This document shows, piece by piece, positions 24,287 to 34,024 of a DNA stretch of 64,000 bases. Numbering within the stretch: position 1 is the stretch's first letter; each line of letters opens with the position of its first letter. Both the position numbers and the translations under genes were made by a program. Below the pieces are notes generated by a model that did not search any database, was not told the DNA's origin, and worked only from the letters and a program-made list of their open reading frames with translations. Origin of the DNA: Glycera tridactyla (Eukaryota); assembly GCA_965644265.1 (NCBI GenBank), contig OZ286460.1, forward strand, positions 89,094,001 through 89,158,000, written 5' to 3'.

Positions 24287-26683
24287 GCGTTACCTGTTTT
24301 CTTTTTCCCTGAAACAAGAGAACGTGATTATGCTGTATGTGTCTCTAGATGAATGAAATAGAAATAACTTGGTCCAAAGGGGCAGCATCATATACTAGTC
24401 TATGGGGAAAACCTGGTCACCCTAAATGCTGTGTTCTGCCGTTATTGAATAAGAAAGCTTGGGATTAGAAATTTGCTTATAGCCACAGACCAATTCATCT
24501 GGAAACCATTGGGAGATACCCATCACCTATAAACATTGTCATAGGGAAATGTAGCAAGACTAGCAGTGTCTTTGAGATCCTTAGCATATTGATGTGGGTG
24601 TCTTCATCAGTGTTGTGTATAATGCTAAATTATTTATGGCGTATAGAATCATCATGGGAGAAGCTGTATCCCTAGACACATTTTTCAGGAAGGCCAAATC
24701 CTCCTCCAGGATCCGATCACACAACAGTGGCAACACCCTTCAACACTACCTGCCCTATGGCTACATAAACAACTTCACTTATACTCACCGTGAGTGAAAT
24801 TCCCTCCCTGTTCACATATTCAATGCTCCAAGGTGGTCTTTATAGGAAGATTCGACTGTATTTCTCATAGTAGGTACACCCTATAAGACAGCTCCACATG
24901 CTAACACACCAAGAGCCCCATTGACTTTGTACAGGAGGGGTCCATGATGAGGGACATAAAGCCAGATGGACAATTCTGTGCTGCTGTTATCTGGGAAAAC
25001 AACCCGAATGTCAGAAACTATGTTTCTCTTGTTATCCACTGGATAGAAAAAGGAAAGATCTCTGGATTCTATACAAAACTTGGAAGATTTTGAGATGATG
25101 TTTGTTACAGAAAATGTTGAAGGGTATGTGGGTAGGGGCTGCATCTTATCAGCATGCTGTGTGATTCCTCTGATCTTGATGAAGCGGAACATTTTGGGAT
25201 GGAGACTGCCTGAAGATGGCCGGTTGATGACTTTATGGCCCTGTTCACAGCTGCTGACTCTCTACCAGCCACATCAATTTATGAAATTCATTAGATTGGC
25301 TGTCATTTCAGTTGTGTGTCTCAATGTGATGCAGAGGGGGATGTTCAACTGGCTTGATGAAGTCCATCCGGTGATCTGAACCACCCGCTGTTGGTGCCAA
25401 TGTCCGTCATAAACAGTGCCCACTTCCCTCCAAATCCCTTTAGTTTGTTGTTTTTTAATGCATATTTTGACAATTTGTATTGGGACCATCATGGAATTGG
25501 ATTTAGTATCTCAATCTATGGAAGCTCATTTTGACGGAGAATGTTTTTTCATTCAAATATATTATTTCAATCTATATAAGTTCATTTTGATGGAGATTGT
25601 TTTTTCATTCAAATATATTGAGACGTTTGAATTAAATGTCTCTGAAAATGTACTCGGCTCAATAGTTTGCATTGCATACCCCAGAGATAGCACACGGAGC
25701 CAGATTTGGTGTGTAACTTATTTTGTCGGAGTGGACCACCTATGCTACCATCTATGCTCCTATGGTATGCATGTGTGTGTTACTTCAGCAAGGGCCATGG
25801 CGGCATGAGCAGGTGATCAGGTGATGACCCATAAATTAATTGTAAGCCTGCAGAGTTCGAGCAAGATGGCGACCGTGTAGCATCGCACGTGGAGCACGGA
25901 GCAGTTGAATCGGATTATGCGTTAATTACAGGACTCATAGGAATTCATACTAGTTCATATCCACGGATTATGGTACAGGGAATCGCGTCAAGTCAGGATT
26001 TGAGTGGACACTGGATCATCAGTTGAGGATTTAAAGGATTAATTGTAGAGCATTGGCTGCACATGTTGGGACTGCAGTGATGGTGTCGCAGCGGAAGGGC
26101 TCCCTCTGGTGAGGGCCAGGAGCACTGTCCGAATCTCGCGAGATCTCAATGTTATGAAGGATGTACATGGATGGTGTGATGTCTCAGTGACTGGCTTATA
26201 AAACTGGACTCTAAAGGTAGAAATTGGCTTATCCCAAAAAGACCGGTGGTGGTGATATAAGTACAGATGGCTTGTTAATCTGCAGTAAGCTTACTTGGAC
26301 ACTCAAGGGTGACGGACACTCAATGGTGATGGTCTGCTGGATAACTCTGCTTTGCTAAATGTTGTTAAATGTTGTGCTTTTGGTGAAGGTGCTTTGGGGC
26401 AACTGCTGTATAAGCTGATCTTGTGGCGACGTGTGTGGACAGTATACACCCTCATCCAGTATACGCGCATTGGGGACAAGTATTGATAGTTATGGACTGG
26501 TTATGGTGATGGGTTTGTGGTGCTAGTCATTTAGCACCTCTAGGGTCCCTTCCAGTTTCGAGGGGGTACAATACACTGTTAATAGGACTGTTAACTCCAG
26601 TTGTTGTTACTAGTCGCTTCATACAGGATAGTGGACGGGGGTACTGGTCTGTTTGTCATCAGTGCCACTGATGAGTGATCAAG

Positions 26684-28100
26684 ATGGCTGATACAGTTCA
26701 CAAATTCAAGTTGCTGCAGTGGGGGGCTGGACTCAGCTCTGGTTACGCAGTGATACGGGCGTTAGAGGAAAAAGGATGCATCATCCAGGCAAAGCTGGTA
26801 GGGTCAGCCTACCAGATTACGAGCAACGACTCGGAGACAGTGGAACGTTTGAGGAATCTGGAGGAGCTGGAAGGAAATCAAGTGAAGTTGGAGGAGATCA
26901 GGCCAGAACTGCGTACATCAATTCTCGTCATCATGGGAGTGCCAACAGATGTGCCAGACGCAGCCATCACAGAACATGTAGAGACAGCCTTCAAGGCCAC
27001 CAGGATCATGGCGTTCAACAAGGAGACCAAAGAGAAGTGTGCCACGAGGAGTGTGAAGGTGTGGGTGAAAGGGGAACCGCCACAGGAAGTCCGCCTAGGT
27101 GCACTGGGAAAGTTCAGAACCAGATTGTTTATTCCGGAACCAACCAGATGCTACAAATGCCAGCGTTTCGGGCACATGGGGCGGGACTGCAGAGGGTACG
27201 AGCGCTGCTCGATCTGCAGTCAGCGACACCGGTCAGAGGAATGCCTGGCGAAGCAGAGGGCCAACATCCCGGTGGAACAGAAATGTGTGAATTGCGAGGG
27301 GGAGCACCCATCAAATTCGGTGAGATGCCAAGTGTACCAGGAAAAGGCGGAGCAAACCAAACACAGGTTCCTATCAACGCACCAAGATGTTCAGCAGGGA
27401 AAAGAGTCCAGCCAAGAAGATCAGCCACCCCCCATGAGTGCCATGCATTACCCAGGACTCGGTCAGCAACAAGCAAAGGCGCCAGCTACCATGGCACCGG
27501 CACAGACACAGGCATGGGGACAGACAGGAGTTATGACGTTGACAGGAGGGAGCACAGCGACAGCGACAGGACAACACCCGGAACCGGTCGTCATGATGAA
27601 AATGAGCACCCTGACAAGCCTTCTAGAGGGGATAGCGGCAATGATTGTGTCGGCGGTGAGAGAACCAGAGAGAGCGCCAGAGACAGTGCAGAGGGTGTTG
27701 GGAAACATTACGGAGAAAATCCTAAACGGAGAGGATCCACAGGAACCAAACAGCCAACATCTGCGTGCAGAGCTGGCCATGACACAGCGAGCGGGCACAC
27801 CGCTGGACAGGAGCATACAAGAGGAAATGGAGTACATGGAGCAAAGGAAACGCGTACAGGAAGAGGACGAGGAAGAAGGGGGCACGATCGAAGACAACAC
27901 CAAGCAGAGGAGAGCGAACACTCCCAAGAAAGGAACATCCAGCGACAACAGCAATACACAGAAGCTGAAGCTGAAGCCCGGCCACATGACAGGGAAACAA
28001 GGACTGGCCAAGAACCTCGGAACACATTTCAAAGACATGGCAGCGGAGAAAGTAGAGAAACAGGAGAAGCAAGAGGGGGAGAGAAGGGAGGACGAGATAT
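26684..28100 (+). CDS. LINE ORF1, Gag-like nucleic-acid-binding protein with three zinc knuckles
   Basis: ATG at 26684. Knuckles are CYKCQRFGHMGRDC, CSICSQRHRSEEC and CVNCEGEHPSNSVRC. The native end is ...REDEI-stop once the insertion is removed (T28100+AA29842-3 = TAA). The tail to 28201 in the ORF track is read-through into the inserted element. Confidence 0.9.
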
Positions 28101-29837
28101 GGCCAATTCTCCGAAATTGGGGCCAGCTACCGAAAAATGTATCTTATGTAAATTCAGCAGCTTTCAACCAGAATTTGGACATGGTGACTGATGTAATGTG
28201 ATGCAAACAATAGTTGGTCCAATTTTGATAAGAATATCTCTAATTTTGGTGAAGTTAGAGGCAATTTAATGGCCAAAATTGGCCATTTTTGACCACACAA
28301 AACGTAACACCAGACCCCACCCTACTTTGGTGATGTGCTATATCAAATTGAGATAATCCCAAGATCTCAAACATACTCAGTCTTGACAATCGATAGCAGG
28401 GCTTCATTTTACAACCTTGGGACATGTCAAATGTTAGAGATAAATAGCTCCCTGATATCTCTGAACTGCGTCACAGTATGTTACTACCATTCCGTCAATT
28501 TTTGAGTGCAAGTTCACCATTCAATCCCACTGATTTCTGCTATGAATCAACTCATGTATCACCATCAGATCATTTGAAAATATTGTTACAATGACCAACC
28601 CAGTGCTCAAAAAAATCAACAAGGTGATAAACAACCTCTAAAAAATGATTTGGCACTTAAAGGTTGACATTTCCGTCAATGGATAACATACCTATGGTCA
28701 GAGTTTTAGCATGTTTACAAGCAACAGGTGCCATCTTGGATTGATCACTCCTTTAAATGTGATCCCCATGCATTCATGACACGACATATTTTTCCGGTTT
28801 AGTTCATAATTTGGTTTATAGTTGATAAAAAAAGTGCATGAATGTCAATTGAAAAATTATAGTAACATGCAAACTTTGCATAACATACATATACACTAGG
28901 TGATACTAAGCCAAGGGATCTCAGGATAAAGTTGACCTTGTTGGACGGTTGCTCAACATTTGGATGATCCATGCTTTTTCATCCACTGATGGTCACAAAT
29001 GATCACTGTGGTATAGGAATATGGATGATGTGAGCATATGTATGTTATTTTGACATAATCTGCACGAGCTACAACCCAATATGTATGTTATCCTTGACTT
29101 TTTTTCTTGAGAGTGGTCATATAAAATCAGATAACTTGGAAAGTCCAAATGTTTTCAAGCCTATTCAATGATATTATGTAAATTTGAATTACTGTGAAGA
29201 TAAATGTAGCTACTAGCTACTTTTGGTGGCAATTACTGAATGAAATTTACATGAGATAACTCGGGTGTAAAAAAATGGCGTCAGCAGTAACATACGTCAC
29301 ATAAAATAACATACATATAAGATGATGTTCATTACTTCCCAACTTTTCCAGAGAATGACAAAACCCTGTTCCCATCATCTCATCAATATGTATTCAATTG
29401 GAATAATGAGTTTGGTACTTATGCTTATTGTAATTGCTTAGAAAAAAAAACTTAAAGACAGCGCCTGAGGATTGAGGACGGACATTGTATTTCTGGCTCA
29501 AATCTTTTTGAATGACTGACCTTGAGAAGGAAATCAGTAGTGTAGAATGACATCTTGGAACAAAGTTTATTGATTTATAATGATAAATGTTAATTCAGAG
29601 CAATTTATGAGTGTTTTTGAGAGATTCTTATAAAAAAGTAACATACGCAACGGTTGACGACCCCCACTCATGAAAACAGTGATAATTATTTTTTGGCTCA
29701 GCAGATCTCCCTGATTTTTTTGGTATAAAGACCCAACAAGTGTTGGAACTGTATGGCAATAATGGTTTATCAAACAGGATTGTTTGAAAAAGTGACCATA
29801 TCTGCCATTTTTTGGCCCCAATTTGGGAGAATTGGCC
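28101..29837. mobile_element. Non-autonomous TIR DNA transposon nested in the LINE (ATAT TSD; superfamily uncertain, Sola-like possible)
   Basis: 25-bp TIR GGCCAATTCTCC(G/C)AAATTGGGGCCA, 24/25 identical. Flanked by ATAT at 28097-28100 and 29838-29841; a TA-TSD reading is also possible. The interior is AT-rich with no long ORF and contrasts sharply with LINE composition. Confidence 0.88.
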
Positions 29838-29841
29838 ATAT

Positions 29842-32800
29842 AACAACACCACAACCACAAGATGCTGGGCTGGGGGGGTTGGTCACTCGCCTGGCGTCCA
29901 GAATCAACATCACCAGGGATGCAGGGAATCAGGCTGTCGAAGCTGCCCCCTGCAGGTCAGTGAGAGAGCAACCCGGGCAGAAGATCAGTGTACTCCAGTG
30001 GAATGTCAGAGGCATGAGGGAGGCGAGGAAGAAAGCATATGTGGCAGCAATGGTATTGCAGGAAGACCCGGAAATTTTGCTCCTACAGGAGACAAATATG
30101 ACACCGGACACTGTATGGAAACTGAGTGGGTACACGGTTTACCACAAACCAGACGTACGCGGTCTGGTGACTGCCATCAAATCCACCATTAAGTCCAACG
30201 AGGTACAGTATATCATCCCGGCGGGACAAGGAGTAGAATGTCAAGCCGTAGACCTGGAGCTGAAAGACGGACCTCTGCGAGTATACAACTTGTATCGGAA
30301 CTGCAACCCGGAAAGACAAGCTGTCCTGACCCCAGGCCCCCTTTTGCACTCAGTCCAGCAGCAGCGATCTCTTATGGGGGGCGATTTCAATGCGCACAGC
30401 ACGCTATGGGGCTCTCCGGCCAACAGAAGATGCAGGACAGGGCAACAACTGACAGATGAGCTGGAAAATTCAGATATAGTAGTCCTTAACTCAGGGGAGG
30501 CTACCCATAAAGATGGCGGACAGCTGGACATAACGATGGTTACAGCCGAACTTGCGCCCCAGGCCACATGGAAAGTCAACACCGCCCTACTTACAGATCA
30601 TTGGGCAATTTCGATTACGCTGGGTGTTAAAAAGGCCCCTTTACCTCCAAGACCAACAAGGCGAAACTTCAGGAAAGCGGATTGGTCGCTCTACAGGACA
30701 GTGCTATCAGATTGGGCCCAATTATTCCAGCACCCGGAGGATCTCGATGAACATGAGCTTGCGGTCGTTAAAGCAGTCACTGAGGCGGCGGACTTGGCCA
30801 TCCCACTGACCAAGGAGGGCAGGCCAGACAGGAAAAACCGCTGGTATGAGACTGACAGAGTGCAGGAGCTTAGAAACCGAGTAAATCAGCACAACAAACT
30901 GGTGAAACGGCAACCGATCGAGGAGAACAAAAGGAGGGCAAGAGAGGCTCAGCAGCACGCAGAACAGGTTTGCCTGGAGGCCAGGATGGACAAATGGTTG
31001 GAGTGGTGTGCGTCCTTCAACCAACACACCAGCCTGTCCTCCATGTGGGCCAAGCTGAAACAGGCAAGTGGAAACCATGTCCAAGACCCAGTCCTACCTA
31101 ATCCGCGTGAGGAAGCAAACCGTCTGATTGAGGAATTCAGTGGACGGTCAGCCTCCGGGGTATTACCAGAAAGGACGAGAGCAGAGATGACAGACCGACA
31201 AGCACAGAGAATCGCTGACACAACAGCTGCCACGGACACACTTGACCCAGAAACAGACAGACCATTCACCAGGGGTGAGATGAAAAGGGCCATAAAGTCT
31301 GCATCTACAGCACCAGGTCTAGATGGGATCACGCACAATATGATTTTTGAGGCCGGGGAGGAGGCGCAGTCGGCTCTACTAGACTTGGTCAACCACTCCT
31401 TCATGAAGCGCAGACTGGTCAAGAAATGGAAACAGGCGGAAATCATTGCCCTCCCAAAACCAGGTCAACCAGGGAAATTCCGCCCCATTTCTCTCCTCTC
31501 ATGCCTGGCAAAGACAATGGAAAGGATGGTGCTGAACAGGCTGAAATGGAGACTAGGGAAGCCACATTCACACGTACTGGGGTTCAAAGCAGGAGCAGGC
31601 ACCTCAGATGCCATAGCAGCGCTGCTGATGCAGGTTACGAATTTCACACGTCCGGTAGACAAGTATGTGGTTTTTCTGGACTTGGAGAAAGCATTCGAGC
31701 TAGCCAACAAGGATGTCATTACAAGTGTATTAGCGTCAGGAGGAGTGAGAGGAAACCTGTTGGCCTGGATCAGAGATTTCCTGGAGGACAGATCAGCCAC
31801 GGTGAAGTTCCAGGGAGTGCAATCAGAGGCTAAACTGTTTGAAAATGGCACTCCACAGGGGTCGGTACTTAGTCCCACCCTTTTCAACCGACTCATGGAG
31901 GTTGTTGTCGCCATGGACTTGCCACAAGGAGTTGTGATTTACAGCTACGCGGACGATCTGGTGATTGTTTCCACCGGGGAGAACGCGTTGGCCAATATGG
32001 AAGAGGCGCTTGTACGGATAAATGGCAAAATCACGGAACTCGGACTCAAAGCTTCACCGGAAAAGACAAAGGCAATGGCGTTTTCCACACCAGACCCGAA
32101 TGCCAGGCTCAGCATCGGAGTTTTGGAGATAGACTGGGTGAGGAGCTACAAATATCTTGGAGTAATCATAGATAAGATGCTCTCATTCAAAGAACACGTG
32201 TCCTACATCACAACTAGAGTGAGGAAGAGGTTGAACCTCATGAGAGACATGACTTCATGGAAGAGTGGAGCCACAGCAGAAGTTCTGAAAGCTTTTTTCA
32301 CGGCCTGCATCAGATCCATCATCGACTACGCAGCTCCCGTACTGATACTAGCGGATCCGAGGACAATCATGACACTGGACAAACTGCAAAACGTGGCCCT
32401 GCGGCATATCCTCGGAGCCCCGAGGTGGACAAAGATAACGACCATGCAGGAAGAGGCTCATCTGATTCCAATAGAGTTCAGGCTATATGAAATGGTATGT
32501 GGTCTGGGGATTAAAAACCTCATGTCCTCGGAGGAGTTGCCCGCGAAAGAGCAGCTGATCAGAGCTGTCACCGAACAAAGAAGGCATCCTGCTTCTTTCT
32601 GGCCAGTGAAGGTGGCCAACACACTCAGGCTTTGCTCGCCTCGACAGGGAATTGAATTCCAGGAGGATCTCCCTGCCATCCAACAGAGGCCACCATGGGA
32701 GGATCCACCTGGAAAGTTTGTCATGGAAACTCCGGAAACGAGCAAAAAACTGGCCGACAAGGGGAAACTAGCGGCAAAAGCATCTAGCCGCATCACCAGG

Positions 32801-33685
32801 CTGGATGTCGGCAAGGAGGCTATTTACTACACAGACGGGTCAGTTTCACCAGTGACGCGGAGAGCAGGAGCAGGGGTGATAGAAATTCAGAAGGGTCCAG
32901 AACTGGAAACAACCACAGAAACTGCGGTAAGACTGACGGATGGGGTATCATCAATGCAGGCTGAGCTAGTTGCCATCACATTGGCCCTCACCATGGCTGC
33001 GGCCAGCCACCTCAGACATGTGGTAGTGCACACTGACTCCTTGGCATCATTACAGGCCCTTCAACAGCACTGGCCAAAGGACAACCGAGATCTGATCACC
33101 ACAGCACAGACCAAAATCCAGGACTTGATTGACGAAGGGGGCTCAGTCACGCTGAACTGGATTCCAAGTCACATAGGCCTTCCAATGAATGATAAGGCGG
33201 ATGCGGCAGCACTCGCAGGCTCCCTGATAAACAGGGCACCGCTCAAGGTCAAGCCCAGCCGTAGCAGCCTAACGAAGGACTTCACCCACAGGGCAAGACA
33301 AATTTGGAGTAGGAGAGTGGATCTGGTAGCAAATCAGTCCCCGTCCATATCCTGGCACAGAGCAGCTACAGGGGGAAAGCAGATACGATTCCCACGAACA
33401 GTCAGAAGACAGAGCGAGGTAGCAATATACAGACTGAGATTAGGTTATAGGTGCAGATGGCAGATACAGAACCCGGTGGTGAGAGAGTGTGAAGAGTGTG
33501 GCCAAGATACTGATCGCCCACTGGTACATTTTCTTGCAGAGTGCGAGGCGTCGAGTAGGATATTTGGAGTTCGAGTTACAAGGGGGGAGGACATCCTCAA
33601 CAGGGCAACGCGGGTTGTGAGGAACGGATGCAGCAATCTAGCAGAGCTGGCCGATAGACTCCGACACAGCAAGCCACCACGGTAG
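29842..33685 (+). CDS. LINE ORF2: AP endonuclease - reverse transcriptase - RNase H - C-terminal CCHC
   Basis: Stop-free. APE motifs QWNVRG, LLQET, GDFNAH, TDH. RT motifs APGLDGI, FRPISLLSC, FLDLEKAF, GTPQGSVLSP, YADD, YKYLG. RNase H motifs YTDGS, AELVAI, TDS, WIPSH..NDKAD. CCHC motif CEECG...HFLAEC. Track positions 29753-29841 derive from the inserted element and its TSD. Confidence 0.95.
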
Positions 33686-34024
33686 AGGATCGCCAGAGGA
33701 CCAGACTCAGTACAGACTTTTAAATCAGTATAGAAATACGGTCAAGGCAAGACGGTATAATTAGACACTGCAATAGGATTACGGATTTCGGAGGGCAAGT
33801 CTATGACAGTGGCCCGTCCCTCCCTCGACATCTACGAGTTGAGCCCAGGGAGAACCACCAACCAACCTACCAACCAACCTTGTAAGCCTGCTTTGCATAA
33901 ATGAAGCATGGTCTGGGAGTTTATTCAGCAATCCTACGATGTCACGCCATTGAAACATGACATAAAAGCAGAGAAGCGCTTGCTTCTTCCTATCACAATG
34001 GCAGACATGAAATTAGGTTCTCAC

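What the first reader, a model, noticed from the sequence alone, without database searches (positions are those of the whole stretch)
26692..33685. LINE with ORF2 frame overprinted across the whole of ORF1: a ~470-codon dual-coding region revealed by removing a nested transposon
Seen: the -1 frame relative to ORF1 has no stop from 26692 (a TGA at 26689-91 overlaps the ORF1 start) to the insertion at 28100; this is the 490-aa track ORF 26719-28191. Deleting 28101-29841 (TE plus one ATAT) joins ...GGRD-ITTPQPQDAG...KISVLQWNVRG in frame with the APE-RT-RNaseH ORF2. The result is one continuous frame of about 1750 codons (1722 aa from the ATG at 26776). The same deletion restores the ORF1 stop TAA. 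ORF2 has no AUG of its own upstream of the first APE motif. Rough by-eye estimate: about 11% of ORF1 codons end in T and about 28% start AA/AG/GA, so about 14 stops are expected in this frame and none occur. Internal control: the equivalent -1 frame over ORF2 shows ORFs of at most 135 aa in the track. Inference: the element expresses RT either with a long overprinted R/G/T/H-rich N-terminal extension or by -1 frameshifting, retrovirus-style. In-phase G_GGA_AAN heptamers occur at 27397-27403 and 27700-27706 (G_GGA_AAC is a known slippery sequence, e.g. in PEG10), although I see no convincing stimulatory structure. I know LINE ORF1/ORF2 overlaps as short, so a full-length overlap would be an unusual gene-expression architecture.
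Basis: partly seen in the sequence, partly recalled or inferred. Interest (0 to 1): 0.85.

Follow-up and report, generated by a model that had tools for sequence, protein, structure and literature searches.

The report
LINE polymerase frame overprints whole ORF1
In this jumping gene and many distant relatives, the reverse-transcriptase gene's reading frame begins just after the start of the smaller RNA-binding gene and runs stop-free across all of it, so both proteins are likely made from two neighbouring start codons on one RNA, a virus-like trick my searches did not find described for LINEs.

Summary
Real and selected. A natural copy without the nested transposon (L009) has ORF1 472 aa and a 1722-aa ORF2 that starts 92 nt into ORF1 in the -1 frame. 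Ten diverged families in this genome share it: T precedes AA/AG/GA at 4 of 846 ORF1 junctions versus 169 of 1102 same-dinucleotide non-stop junctions; eight outgroup ORF1s show no such avoidance. 15 of 120 listed database proteins carry a 350-630-aa extension matching the -1 frame. In 8 of 9 families the next AUG after ORF1's is in the ORF2 frame (+23, +77 or +92 nt; P about 0.012). All four -1 stops lie upstream of it. Best model (0.68): second-AUG initiation (leaky scanning or reinitiation) giving ORF2p a disordered, freely evolving ~440-aa leader. Weak points: ORF1's AUG context is strong, this family's 822-nt leader holds 20 AUGs, no translation data, clade not placed. The scan noted a similar layout earlier in dinoflagellate LINEs (unchecked notes).

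The parts
25840..25851 (+). 5' target-site duplication of the LINE (12 bp)
   Evidence: Same 12-mer at 33880-33891; the three other copies have different TSDs
25852..26683 (+). 5' leader, about 830 nt, beginning with an AAGATGGC motif (YY1-like; label recalled); 20 upstream AUGs, all opening short uORFs
   Evidence: Homology to L007-L009 starts at 25854-25863; uORF list
26671..26691 (+). 6-codon uORF in the -1 frame that overlaps the ORF1 AUG and ends at TGA 26689-91
26684..28100 (+). ORF1 (472 aa): two RRM-like domains, three CCHC knuckles (about 27149-27328), low-conservation C-half; its stop TAA is split off by the insertion
26776..26778 (+). Candidate ORF2 start: first AUG downstream of the ORF1 AUG (+92 nt), -1 frame, A at -3
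26776..28100 (+). Overprinted N-terminal extension of ORF2 (about 440 aa, R/G/T/S-rich, predicted disordered)
27397..27403 (+). In-phase G_GGA_AAA heptamer, not conserved in other families
27700..27706 (+). In-phase G_GGA_AAC heptamer, not conserved in other families
28101..29837 (.). Nested non-autonomous DNA transposon with terminal inverted repeats starting GGCC, flanked by ATAT (28097-28100, 29838-29841); at least 40 copies at 99-100%
29842..33685 (+). Remainder of ORF2: conserved LxxRLxxR helix (about 29879-29905), APE (about 29993-30610), RT (31454-32170), RNase H (32816-33220), C-terminal CCHC motif
33853..33879 (+). (AACC)n 3' tail
33880..33891 (+). 3' target-site duplication

Best explanation
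This LINE keeps its ORF2 frame open across all of ORF1, and ORF2 is likely translated by initiation at the AUG just downstream of ORF1's start (here +92 nt), not by reinitiation after ORF1 or by a mid-ORF1 frameshift. Shown: the open frame, its selection across ten families, the position of the AUG, and the four stops confined upstream of it. Inferred: most ribosomes start at the strong ORF1 AUG and make the abundant RNA-binding protein. A minority skip it, by leaky scanning or by reinitiating after a tiny uORF beside the ORF1 start, and make a ~1700-aa ORF2p whose first ~400-450 residues are a disordered passenger. Those residues are constrained mainly to contain no stop. This would set a high ORF1p:ORF2p ratio without the stop-restart coupling known from L1 and SART1.
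For: Natural copy with 472-aa ORF1 and 1722-aa ORF2. 14 of 34 clade loci keep a 395-490-codon overlap, always in the -1 frame; 0 of 10 outgroup loci exceed 165 codons. T3 before AA/AG/GA 4/846 vs 169/1102 (Fisher p 9e-39). All 4 stops lie upstream of the candidate AUG (+5, +23, +59, +65 nt); none follow it. Codons 31-50: 0 observed vs 4.4 expected; codons 31-100: 0 vs 13.2. Next AUG is in the -1 frame in 8 of 9 families, P about 0.012 given ORF1's protein sequence. It sits at two different sites (+23 and +77/+92), always with a purine at -3. No ORF2-frame AUG from 60 nt before the ORF1 stop to APE in 5 of 10 families. Among 11 copies of one family, 100 shared overlap variants are 85 non-synonymous and 0 stop in the ORF2 frame, whereas 10 of 305 private variants (five families) make stops. 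Extension pLDDT about 30, APE about 85. 15 of 120 database proteins, about 11 lineages, have the same extension.
Against: No translation data. The ORF1 AUG has a strong context (purine -3 and G+4) in 7 of 9 families, which disfavours leaking. This family's leader has 19-20 AUGs with no depletion (17 expected), which is hard to square with plain cap scanning; the other eight leaders have 2-6. One family (L086/L087/L098) has GTG at +23 and its next AUG is in the +1 frame. The AUG statistic is modest and families are related. Two families have an AUG 4 nt before the ORF1 stop, compatible with stop-restart there.
Confidence: 0.68

Rival explanations
1. A separate RNA (internal transcription start or leader splice landing between or just before the two AUGs) makes the second AUG the first one read; the protein product is the same long ORF2p.
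For: The AUG-rich 822-nt leader needs some bypass. One contig of a run of unrecorded kind shows a GT..AG joint from a leader donor (L009 about 585, window about 26217), though to an acceptor at the 3' end.
Against: Two of the +23 families (L081, L082) have no AG between the two AUGs. A separate RNA could start near APE and would not need 440 stop-free codons. Contigs of both runs cross the leader-ORF1 junction unspliced.
Confidence: 0.12
2. Programmed -1 frameshifting produces an ORF1-ORF2 fusion, either at the reader's heptamers or within the first ~30-40 codons.
For: Two in-phase heptamers in this family and a relaxed G_GAA_AAA at codon 28. ORF2 is always in the -1 frame.
Against: Strict heptamers in only 4 of 10 families, at unrelated positions. 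No stimulatory fold. A mid-ORF1 shift cannot explain stop avoidance in codons 31-200. An early shift would discard nearly all of ORF1 from the fusion, and no early site is shared.
Confidence: 0.08
3. The extension is itself a functional region (for example an RNA-binding or condensate-forming disordered domain, or a cleaved product), and the overlap is kept for it rather than for start-site access.
For: Arg 9-13%, Gly 10-15%; length held at 395-442 aa in nine loci. Fourfold-site divergence in the overlap is slightly lower than in ORF2 alone (298/495 vs 1963/2903, p 0.001).
Against: 85 of 100 shared variants change its amino acids. Net charge ranges from -7 to +18. No Pfam match. Length and composition follow from ORF1. 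This rival can coexist with the best explanation.
Confidence: 0.08
4. The frame is open as a by-product of T-poor codon usage or dinucleotide bias and is not translated; ORF2 starts near the ORF1 stop.
For: ORF1 T3 is low (8.7%), and ORF2's own -1 frame is also somewhat stop-poor (368/2282 vs 667/3075).
Against: That background bias is an odds ratio of 0.69 against 0.026 in the overlap. The +1 frame is normal. Eight outgroup ORF1s match their shuffles.
Confidence: 0.02

Closest known systems
Two-ORF APE-RT-RNase H LINEs with type I ORF1 (I superfamily: I, Nimb, R1, Tad1 and kin)
   Same: ORF1 with two RRMs upstream of three CCHC knuckles (type I in PMC4120745, passages read); ORF2 with APE, RT, RNase H; TSD and short-repeat tail.
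   Different: ORF2 frame begins near the ORF1 start and overlaps all of it. The review passages read describe an intergenic spacer for most elements (PMC3894237, parts 1-2 of 3 read). Exact clade not determined.
SART1 (UAAUG stop-start) and human L1 (reinitiation across a 63-nt spacer)
   Same: Bicistronic RNA needing much ORF1p and little ORF2p (PMC3894237; passages of PMC2881922, PMC5972666).
   Different: There ORF2 starts at or after the ORF1 stop and depends on ORF1 translation. Here 5 of 10 families lack an AUG there and the frame is kept open from the 5' end.
Viral overlapping ORFs reached by leaky scanning: tymovirus p69/replicase, polerovirus P0/P1, Theiler's virus L* (AUG 13 nt downstream, ACG in some strains)
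   Same: Two close AUGs in different frames; in tymoviruses the pair includes the replicase (PMC3542737, passages read). The non-AUG variant parallels the GTG family here.
   Different: This is a cellular retrotransposon. The overprinted stretch is the leader of the polymerase itself, the AUG spacing is wider (23-92 nt), and nothing is shown experimentally.
Retroviral and PEG10-type gag-pol -1 frameshifting; HeT-A frameshift
   Same: Polymerase in the -1 frame relative to a zinc-knuckle gag-like ORF (PMC5009743, passages read).
   Different: No conserved slippery site or stimulator; the overlap covers the whole upstream ORF, not only its end.

Membership tests
APE-type LINE, I superfamily | ORF2 with APE, RT and RNase H | tested here: met
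   Pfam Exo_endo_phos, RVT_1 (2e-36), RNase_H (1e-12)
APE-type LINE, I superfamily | Type I ORF1 (RRM upstream of CCHC knuckles) | tested here: met
   Model pLDDT 84; top fold matches are tandem-RRM proteins (E 1e-4, TM 0.2-0.3); three invariant CCHC motifs
APE-type LINE, I superfamily | Variable TSDs and 3' simple-repeat tail, no LTRs | tested here: met
   12-bp TSD here, different TSDs in 3 of 3 other copies, (AACC)n tail
Nimb, I or another named clade | RT groups with reference members of the clade | not testable with these tools
   No named reference RTs were returned; named hits were uncharacterised crustacean models. The tree has no references.
Programmed -1 frameshift (gag-pol type) | Conserved in-phase slippery heptamer | tested here: not met
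   4 of 10 families, unrelated positions
Programmed -1 frameshift (gag-pol type) | Downstream stimulatory structure | tested here: not met
   z 0.50 and -0.94 for the 80 nt after each heptamer; pseudoknots not modelled
Stop-restart coupling (SART1/L1 type) | ORF2 AUG at or after the ORF1 stop | tested here: not met
   Absent in this family and 5 of 10 families; present at -4 in 2
Leaky-scanning overlapping ORFs | Second ORF starts at the next AUG downstream | tested here: met
   8 of 9 families
Leaky-scanning overlapping ORFs | Weak first AUG and AUG-poor leader | tested here: not met
   Strong context in 7 of 9; 19-20 leader AUGs in this family, 2-6 in the other eight
Leaky-scanning overlapping ORFs | Initiation shown at both AUGs | not testable with these tools
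   No run on record as RNA and no ribosome profiling

The most novel reading that the evidence does not exclude
An old, widespread clade of LINEs has replaced the usual stop-restart route to ORF2 with two competing start codons at the 5' end, paying for it by keeping a ~450-codon second frame open through all of ORF1. This would be a third general way for non-LTR retrotransposons to make reverse transcriptase, and many annotated ORF2s of this clade would lack their first quarter.
Probability: 0.65. Interest if true: 0.85.

Novelty: new variant of a known kind. Interest (0 to 1): 0.76.

Why it matters
How LINEs translate ORF2 is a long-standing open question; the reviews read cite worked cases only for L1 and SART1. 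This clade offers a different, easily tested solution: two AUGs 23-92 nt apart whose contexts can be mutated one at a time. It is also a natural experiment in overlapping-gene evolution outside viruses, with ten families in one genome showing one frame under amino-acid selection and the other mainly under no-stop selection. TE libraries and gene models of this clade may have mis-set ORF2 starts or fused the two ORFs.

Tried and rejected
Compositional artefact: rejected. Insertion artefact: rejected by three empty-site copies. Conserved slippery site or stimulator: not found. No unusual fold around the two AUGs (z -0.07 and -1.51). DNA of relatives from other organisms: the metagenome scan gave 4 loci, the only close one (L112) lacks the 5' half, and L114 is a distant element with an 11-codon overlap; two viral-contig scans gave nothing. 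So outside this genome the overlap is inferred from proteins only. Expression: no RNA holder listed; two runs of unrecorded kind hold the element as contigs, two guessed-RNA runs laid nothing. ORF1 searches returned 1 and 2 proteins. The large profile search unintentionally included APE positions, so its totals (11,616 hits) do not count extensions; I rescored the 126 new proteins instead. Atlas look-up of the extension gave only weak leads (0.87-0.90). The RT tree has weak deep nodes and no references, so monophyly was not tested. Two papers wanted (PMC2705964, PMC2630067) are not held. The ORF2-only private counts are inflated by decayed copies and were not used.
Full report
OBSERVATION. The window holds a full-length LINE at about 25852-33879 with a 12-bp target-site duplication and an (AACC)n tail. 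ORF1 starts at 26684. Its -1 frame has no stop from 26692 to the insertion. Shuffling synonymous codons within ORF1 gives 11.2 +/- 2.6 stops; none of 20,000 shuffles had 1 or fewer. The +1 frame is ordinary (28 vs 27.0). The insertion at 28101-29837 is a non-autonomous DNA transposon flanked by ATAT in 6 of 6 copies checked, with at least 40 copies at 99-100% identity. Three other copies of the LINE, 97-99% identical, have the empty site. L007 and L008 have private frameshifts.

WHAT THE ELEMENT IS. ORF2 has APE, RT and RNase H. The ORF1 N-half folds with mean pLDDT 84, matches tandem-RRM proteins and has three invariant CCHC motifs. This is the type I ORF1 described for the I, Jockey, R1, Tad1, plant L1 and L2 clades (PMC4120745, passages). 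With RNase H, an I-superfamily element is likely; I could not place it in a named clade.

THE OVERLAP IS CLADE-WIDE. Genome searches with ORF1 and APE led to 44 loci: 34 from the close clade (APE about 45-99% identical) and 10 from distant families (APE 25-33%). Fourteen of the 34 keep a 395-490-codon overlap, always in the -1 frame, and several intact ones have ORF2 frames of 1677-1772 codons. Two more have the long ORF2 frame with a broken ORF1. The rest are decayed, 5'-truncated or had no APE hit. The nine outgroup loci with both hits overlap by at most 165 codons. I took one copy from each of ten families (ORF1 identity 49-63% in the N-half and 28-37% in the C-half for the ten pairs compared). 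T stands before AA/AG/GA at 4 of 846 eligible junctions, against 169 of 1102 before non-stop codons with the same first base. Eight outgroup ORF1s give 579/1936 against 684/2063, and ORF2-only regions 368/2282 against 667/3075 (odds ratio 0.026 vs 0.69).

BEYOND THIS GENOME. A search with the APE-RT region found 428 proteins and listed 120. A profile of the -1 frame matches the N-termini of 17 of them; 15 have 350-630 residues before APE (iE 1e-6 to 4e-44) and none of these matches the ORF1 profile significantly. The best of 300 shuffled controls scored E 2.9. The 15 fall into about 11 lineages below 70% identity and are scattered across the RT tree among shorter proteins. A second library added six more among 126 new proteins. 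About 100 of the 120 begin near APE; I cannot tell truncation or decay from a conventional layout. Three named crustacean gene models match ORF1 itself joined to ORF2, possibly as prediction artefacts. Hosts of the extension-bearing proteins are unnamed, and I have no DNA for them.

WHERE RIBOSOMES ENTER THE FRAME. All four -1 stops in the ten families lie in the first 22 codons. Summed over nine families, codons 31-50 have 0 stops against 4.4 expected and codons 31-100 have 0 against 13.2, so entry is near the 5' end. In 8 of 9 families with an intact 5' end, the first AUG after ORF1's is in the ORF2 frame: +23 nt in five, +77 in two, +92 here. Given the ORF1 protein sequences, P(8 or more of 9) is about 0.012, with families not fully independent. 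The stops lie only upstream of that AUG. The exception (L086, L087, L098) has GTG at +23; its frame is still stop-free (0 vs 13.6). The three families with the farther AUG each have a 1-6-codon uORF starting 13-26 nt before the ORF1 AUG; reinitiation past ORF1's start is a possible route, inferred only. Five of ten families have no ORF2-frame AUG from 60 nt before the ORF1 stop to APE; two have one at -4.

FRAMESHIFTING. Both heptamers exist, but strict in-phase heptamers occur in 4 of 10 families at unrelated codons, the downstream 80 nt fold no better than shuffles, and a shift at codon 238 or 339 would not explain stop avoidance upstream.

WHAT THE EXTENSION IS. It is 395-442 aa, 9-13% Arg, 10-15% Gly, 11-14% hydrophobic, has no Pfam match and is predicted unstructured (pLDDT under 50 for residues 1-486, against about 85 for APE). 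Among 11 copies of one family, shared variants in the overlap are 61 synonymous and 39 not in ORF1, but 15 and 85 in the ORF2 frame, with no stop in either. In ORF2 alone they are 93 and 24. Fourfold sites diverge 0.60-0.65 in the overlap against 0.68 in ORF2, near saturation. ORF1 carries the amino-acid constraint; the extension mainly avoids stops. A short LxxRLxxR helix just past the ORF1 stop is shared by the families, in most cases with no AUG directly before it, which also argues for translation from upstream.

AGAINST THE MODEL. The ORF1 AUG context is strong in 7 of 9 families, so leaking would be low; that fits a low ORF2p need but is not the textbook case. This family's 822-nt leader has 20 AUGs without depletion, so how ribosomes reach either start is unexplained. 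No run is on record as RNA. Contigs of two runs of unknown kind cross the leader unspliced, and one shows a weak GT..AG joint that removes both ORFs.

COMPARISON AND NOVELTY. The reviews read describe SART1 stop-start coupling, L1 reinitiation and intergenic spacers (PMC3894237 parts 1-2 of 3; passages of PMC2881922, PMC5972666, PMC5009743). The closest working analogues are viral: tymovirus p69/replicase and Theiler's virus L* (PMC3542737 passages). Eight full-text searches listed nothing whose title or abstract describes a LINE with ORF2 overlapping all of ORF1, and passages of PMC11481361, PMC11203168 and PMC3849965 had none. Repbase Reports and subscription papers are not searched, so prior mention is not excluded. 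No supplements were read. Two unchecked notes of this scan report a whole-ORF1 overlap in dinoflagellate LINEs, in the +1 frame and with ORF2's AUG first; I did not test them.

VERDICT. Observation confirmed and extended to a clade; selection for an open frame about 0.97; second-AUG initiation 0.68; new variant of a known kind; interest 0.76.

Noticed in passing
window 28101-29837; L117-L121: Young non-autonomous DNA transposon with GGCC termini and ATAT on both sides in 6 of 6 copies; at least 40 copies at 99-100%. Superfamily not determined.
   Followed up: partly
L100 1382-8767 and L106 788-5680: In two outgroup LINE families ORF1 and ORF2 are in the same frame, separated by a single stop codon: readthrough or reinitiation candidates.
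   Followed up: no
L100, L102-L105, L107-L109: Outgroup families have very long ORF1 frames (1048-1428 codons); L105 overlaps ORF2 by 165 codons in the -1 frame.
   Followed up: no
L082 vs L084: Fourfold-site divergence is 0.12-0.18 in ORF1 but 0.03 in ORF2, suggesting a 5' segment swap between subfamilies.
   Followed up: no
L009 about 585 to 6168 (window about 26217 to 33540): One contig shows a GT..AG joint that skips both ORFs, and another joins foreign sequence at the same acceptor. Weak: 28 letters on the short side.
   Followed up: no
L079 and L088, ORF1 stop: An ORF2-frame AUG sits 4 nt before the ORF1 stop, resembling stop-restart junctions, although the upstream frame is also open.
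   Followed up: partly
window 25862-25871 and 5' ends of eight other families: Elements begin with GTTCCGG-like sequence and an ANATGGC motif whose AUG lies about 10 nt from the 5' end and opens a short uORF; the YY1 label is recalled.
   Followed up: partly
P0011, P0078, P0080: Named crustacean gene models join ORF1 to ORF2 in one protein; possibly mis-predicted versions of a two-frame layout.
   Followed up: no
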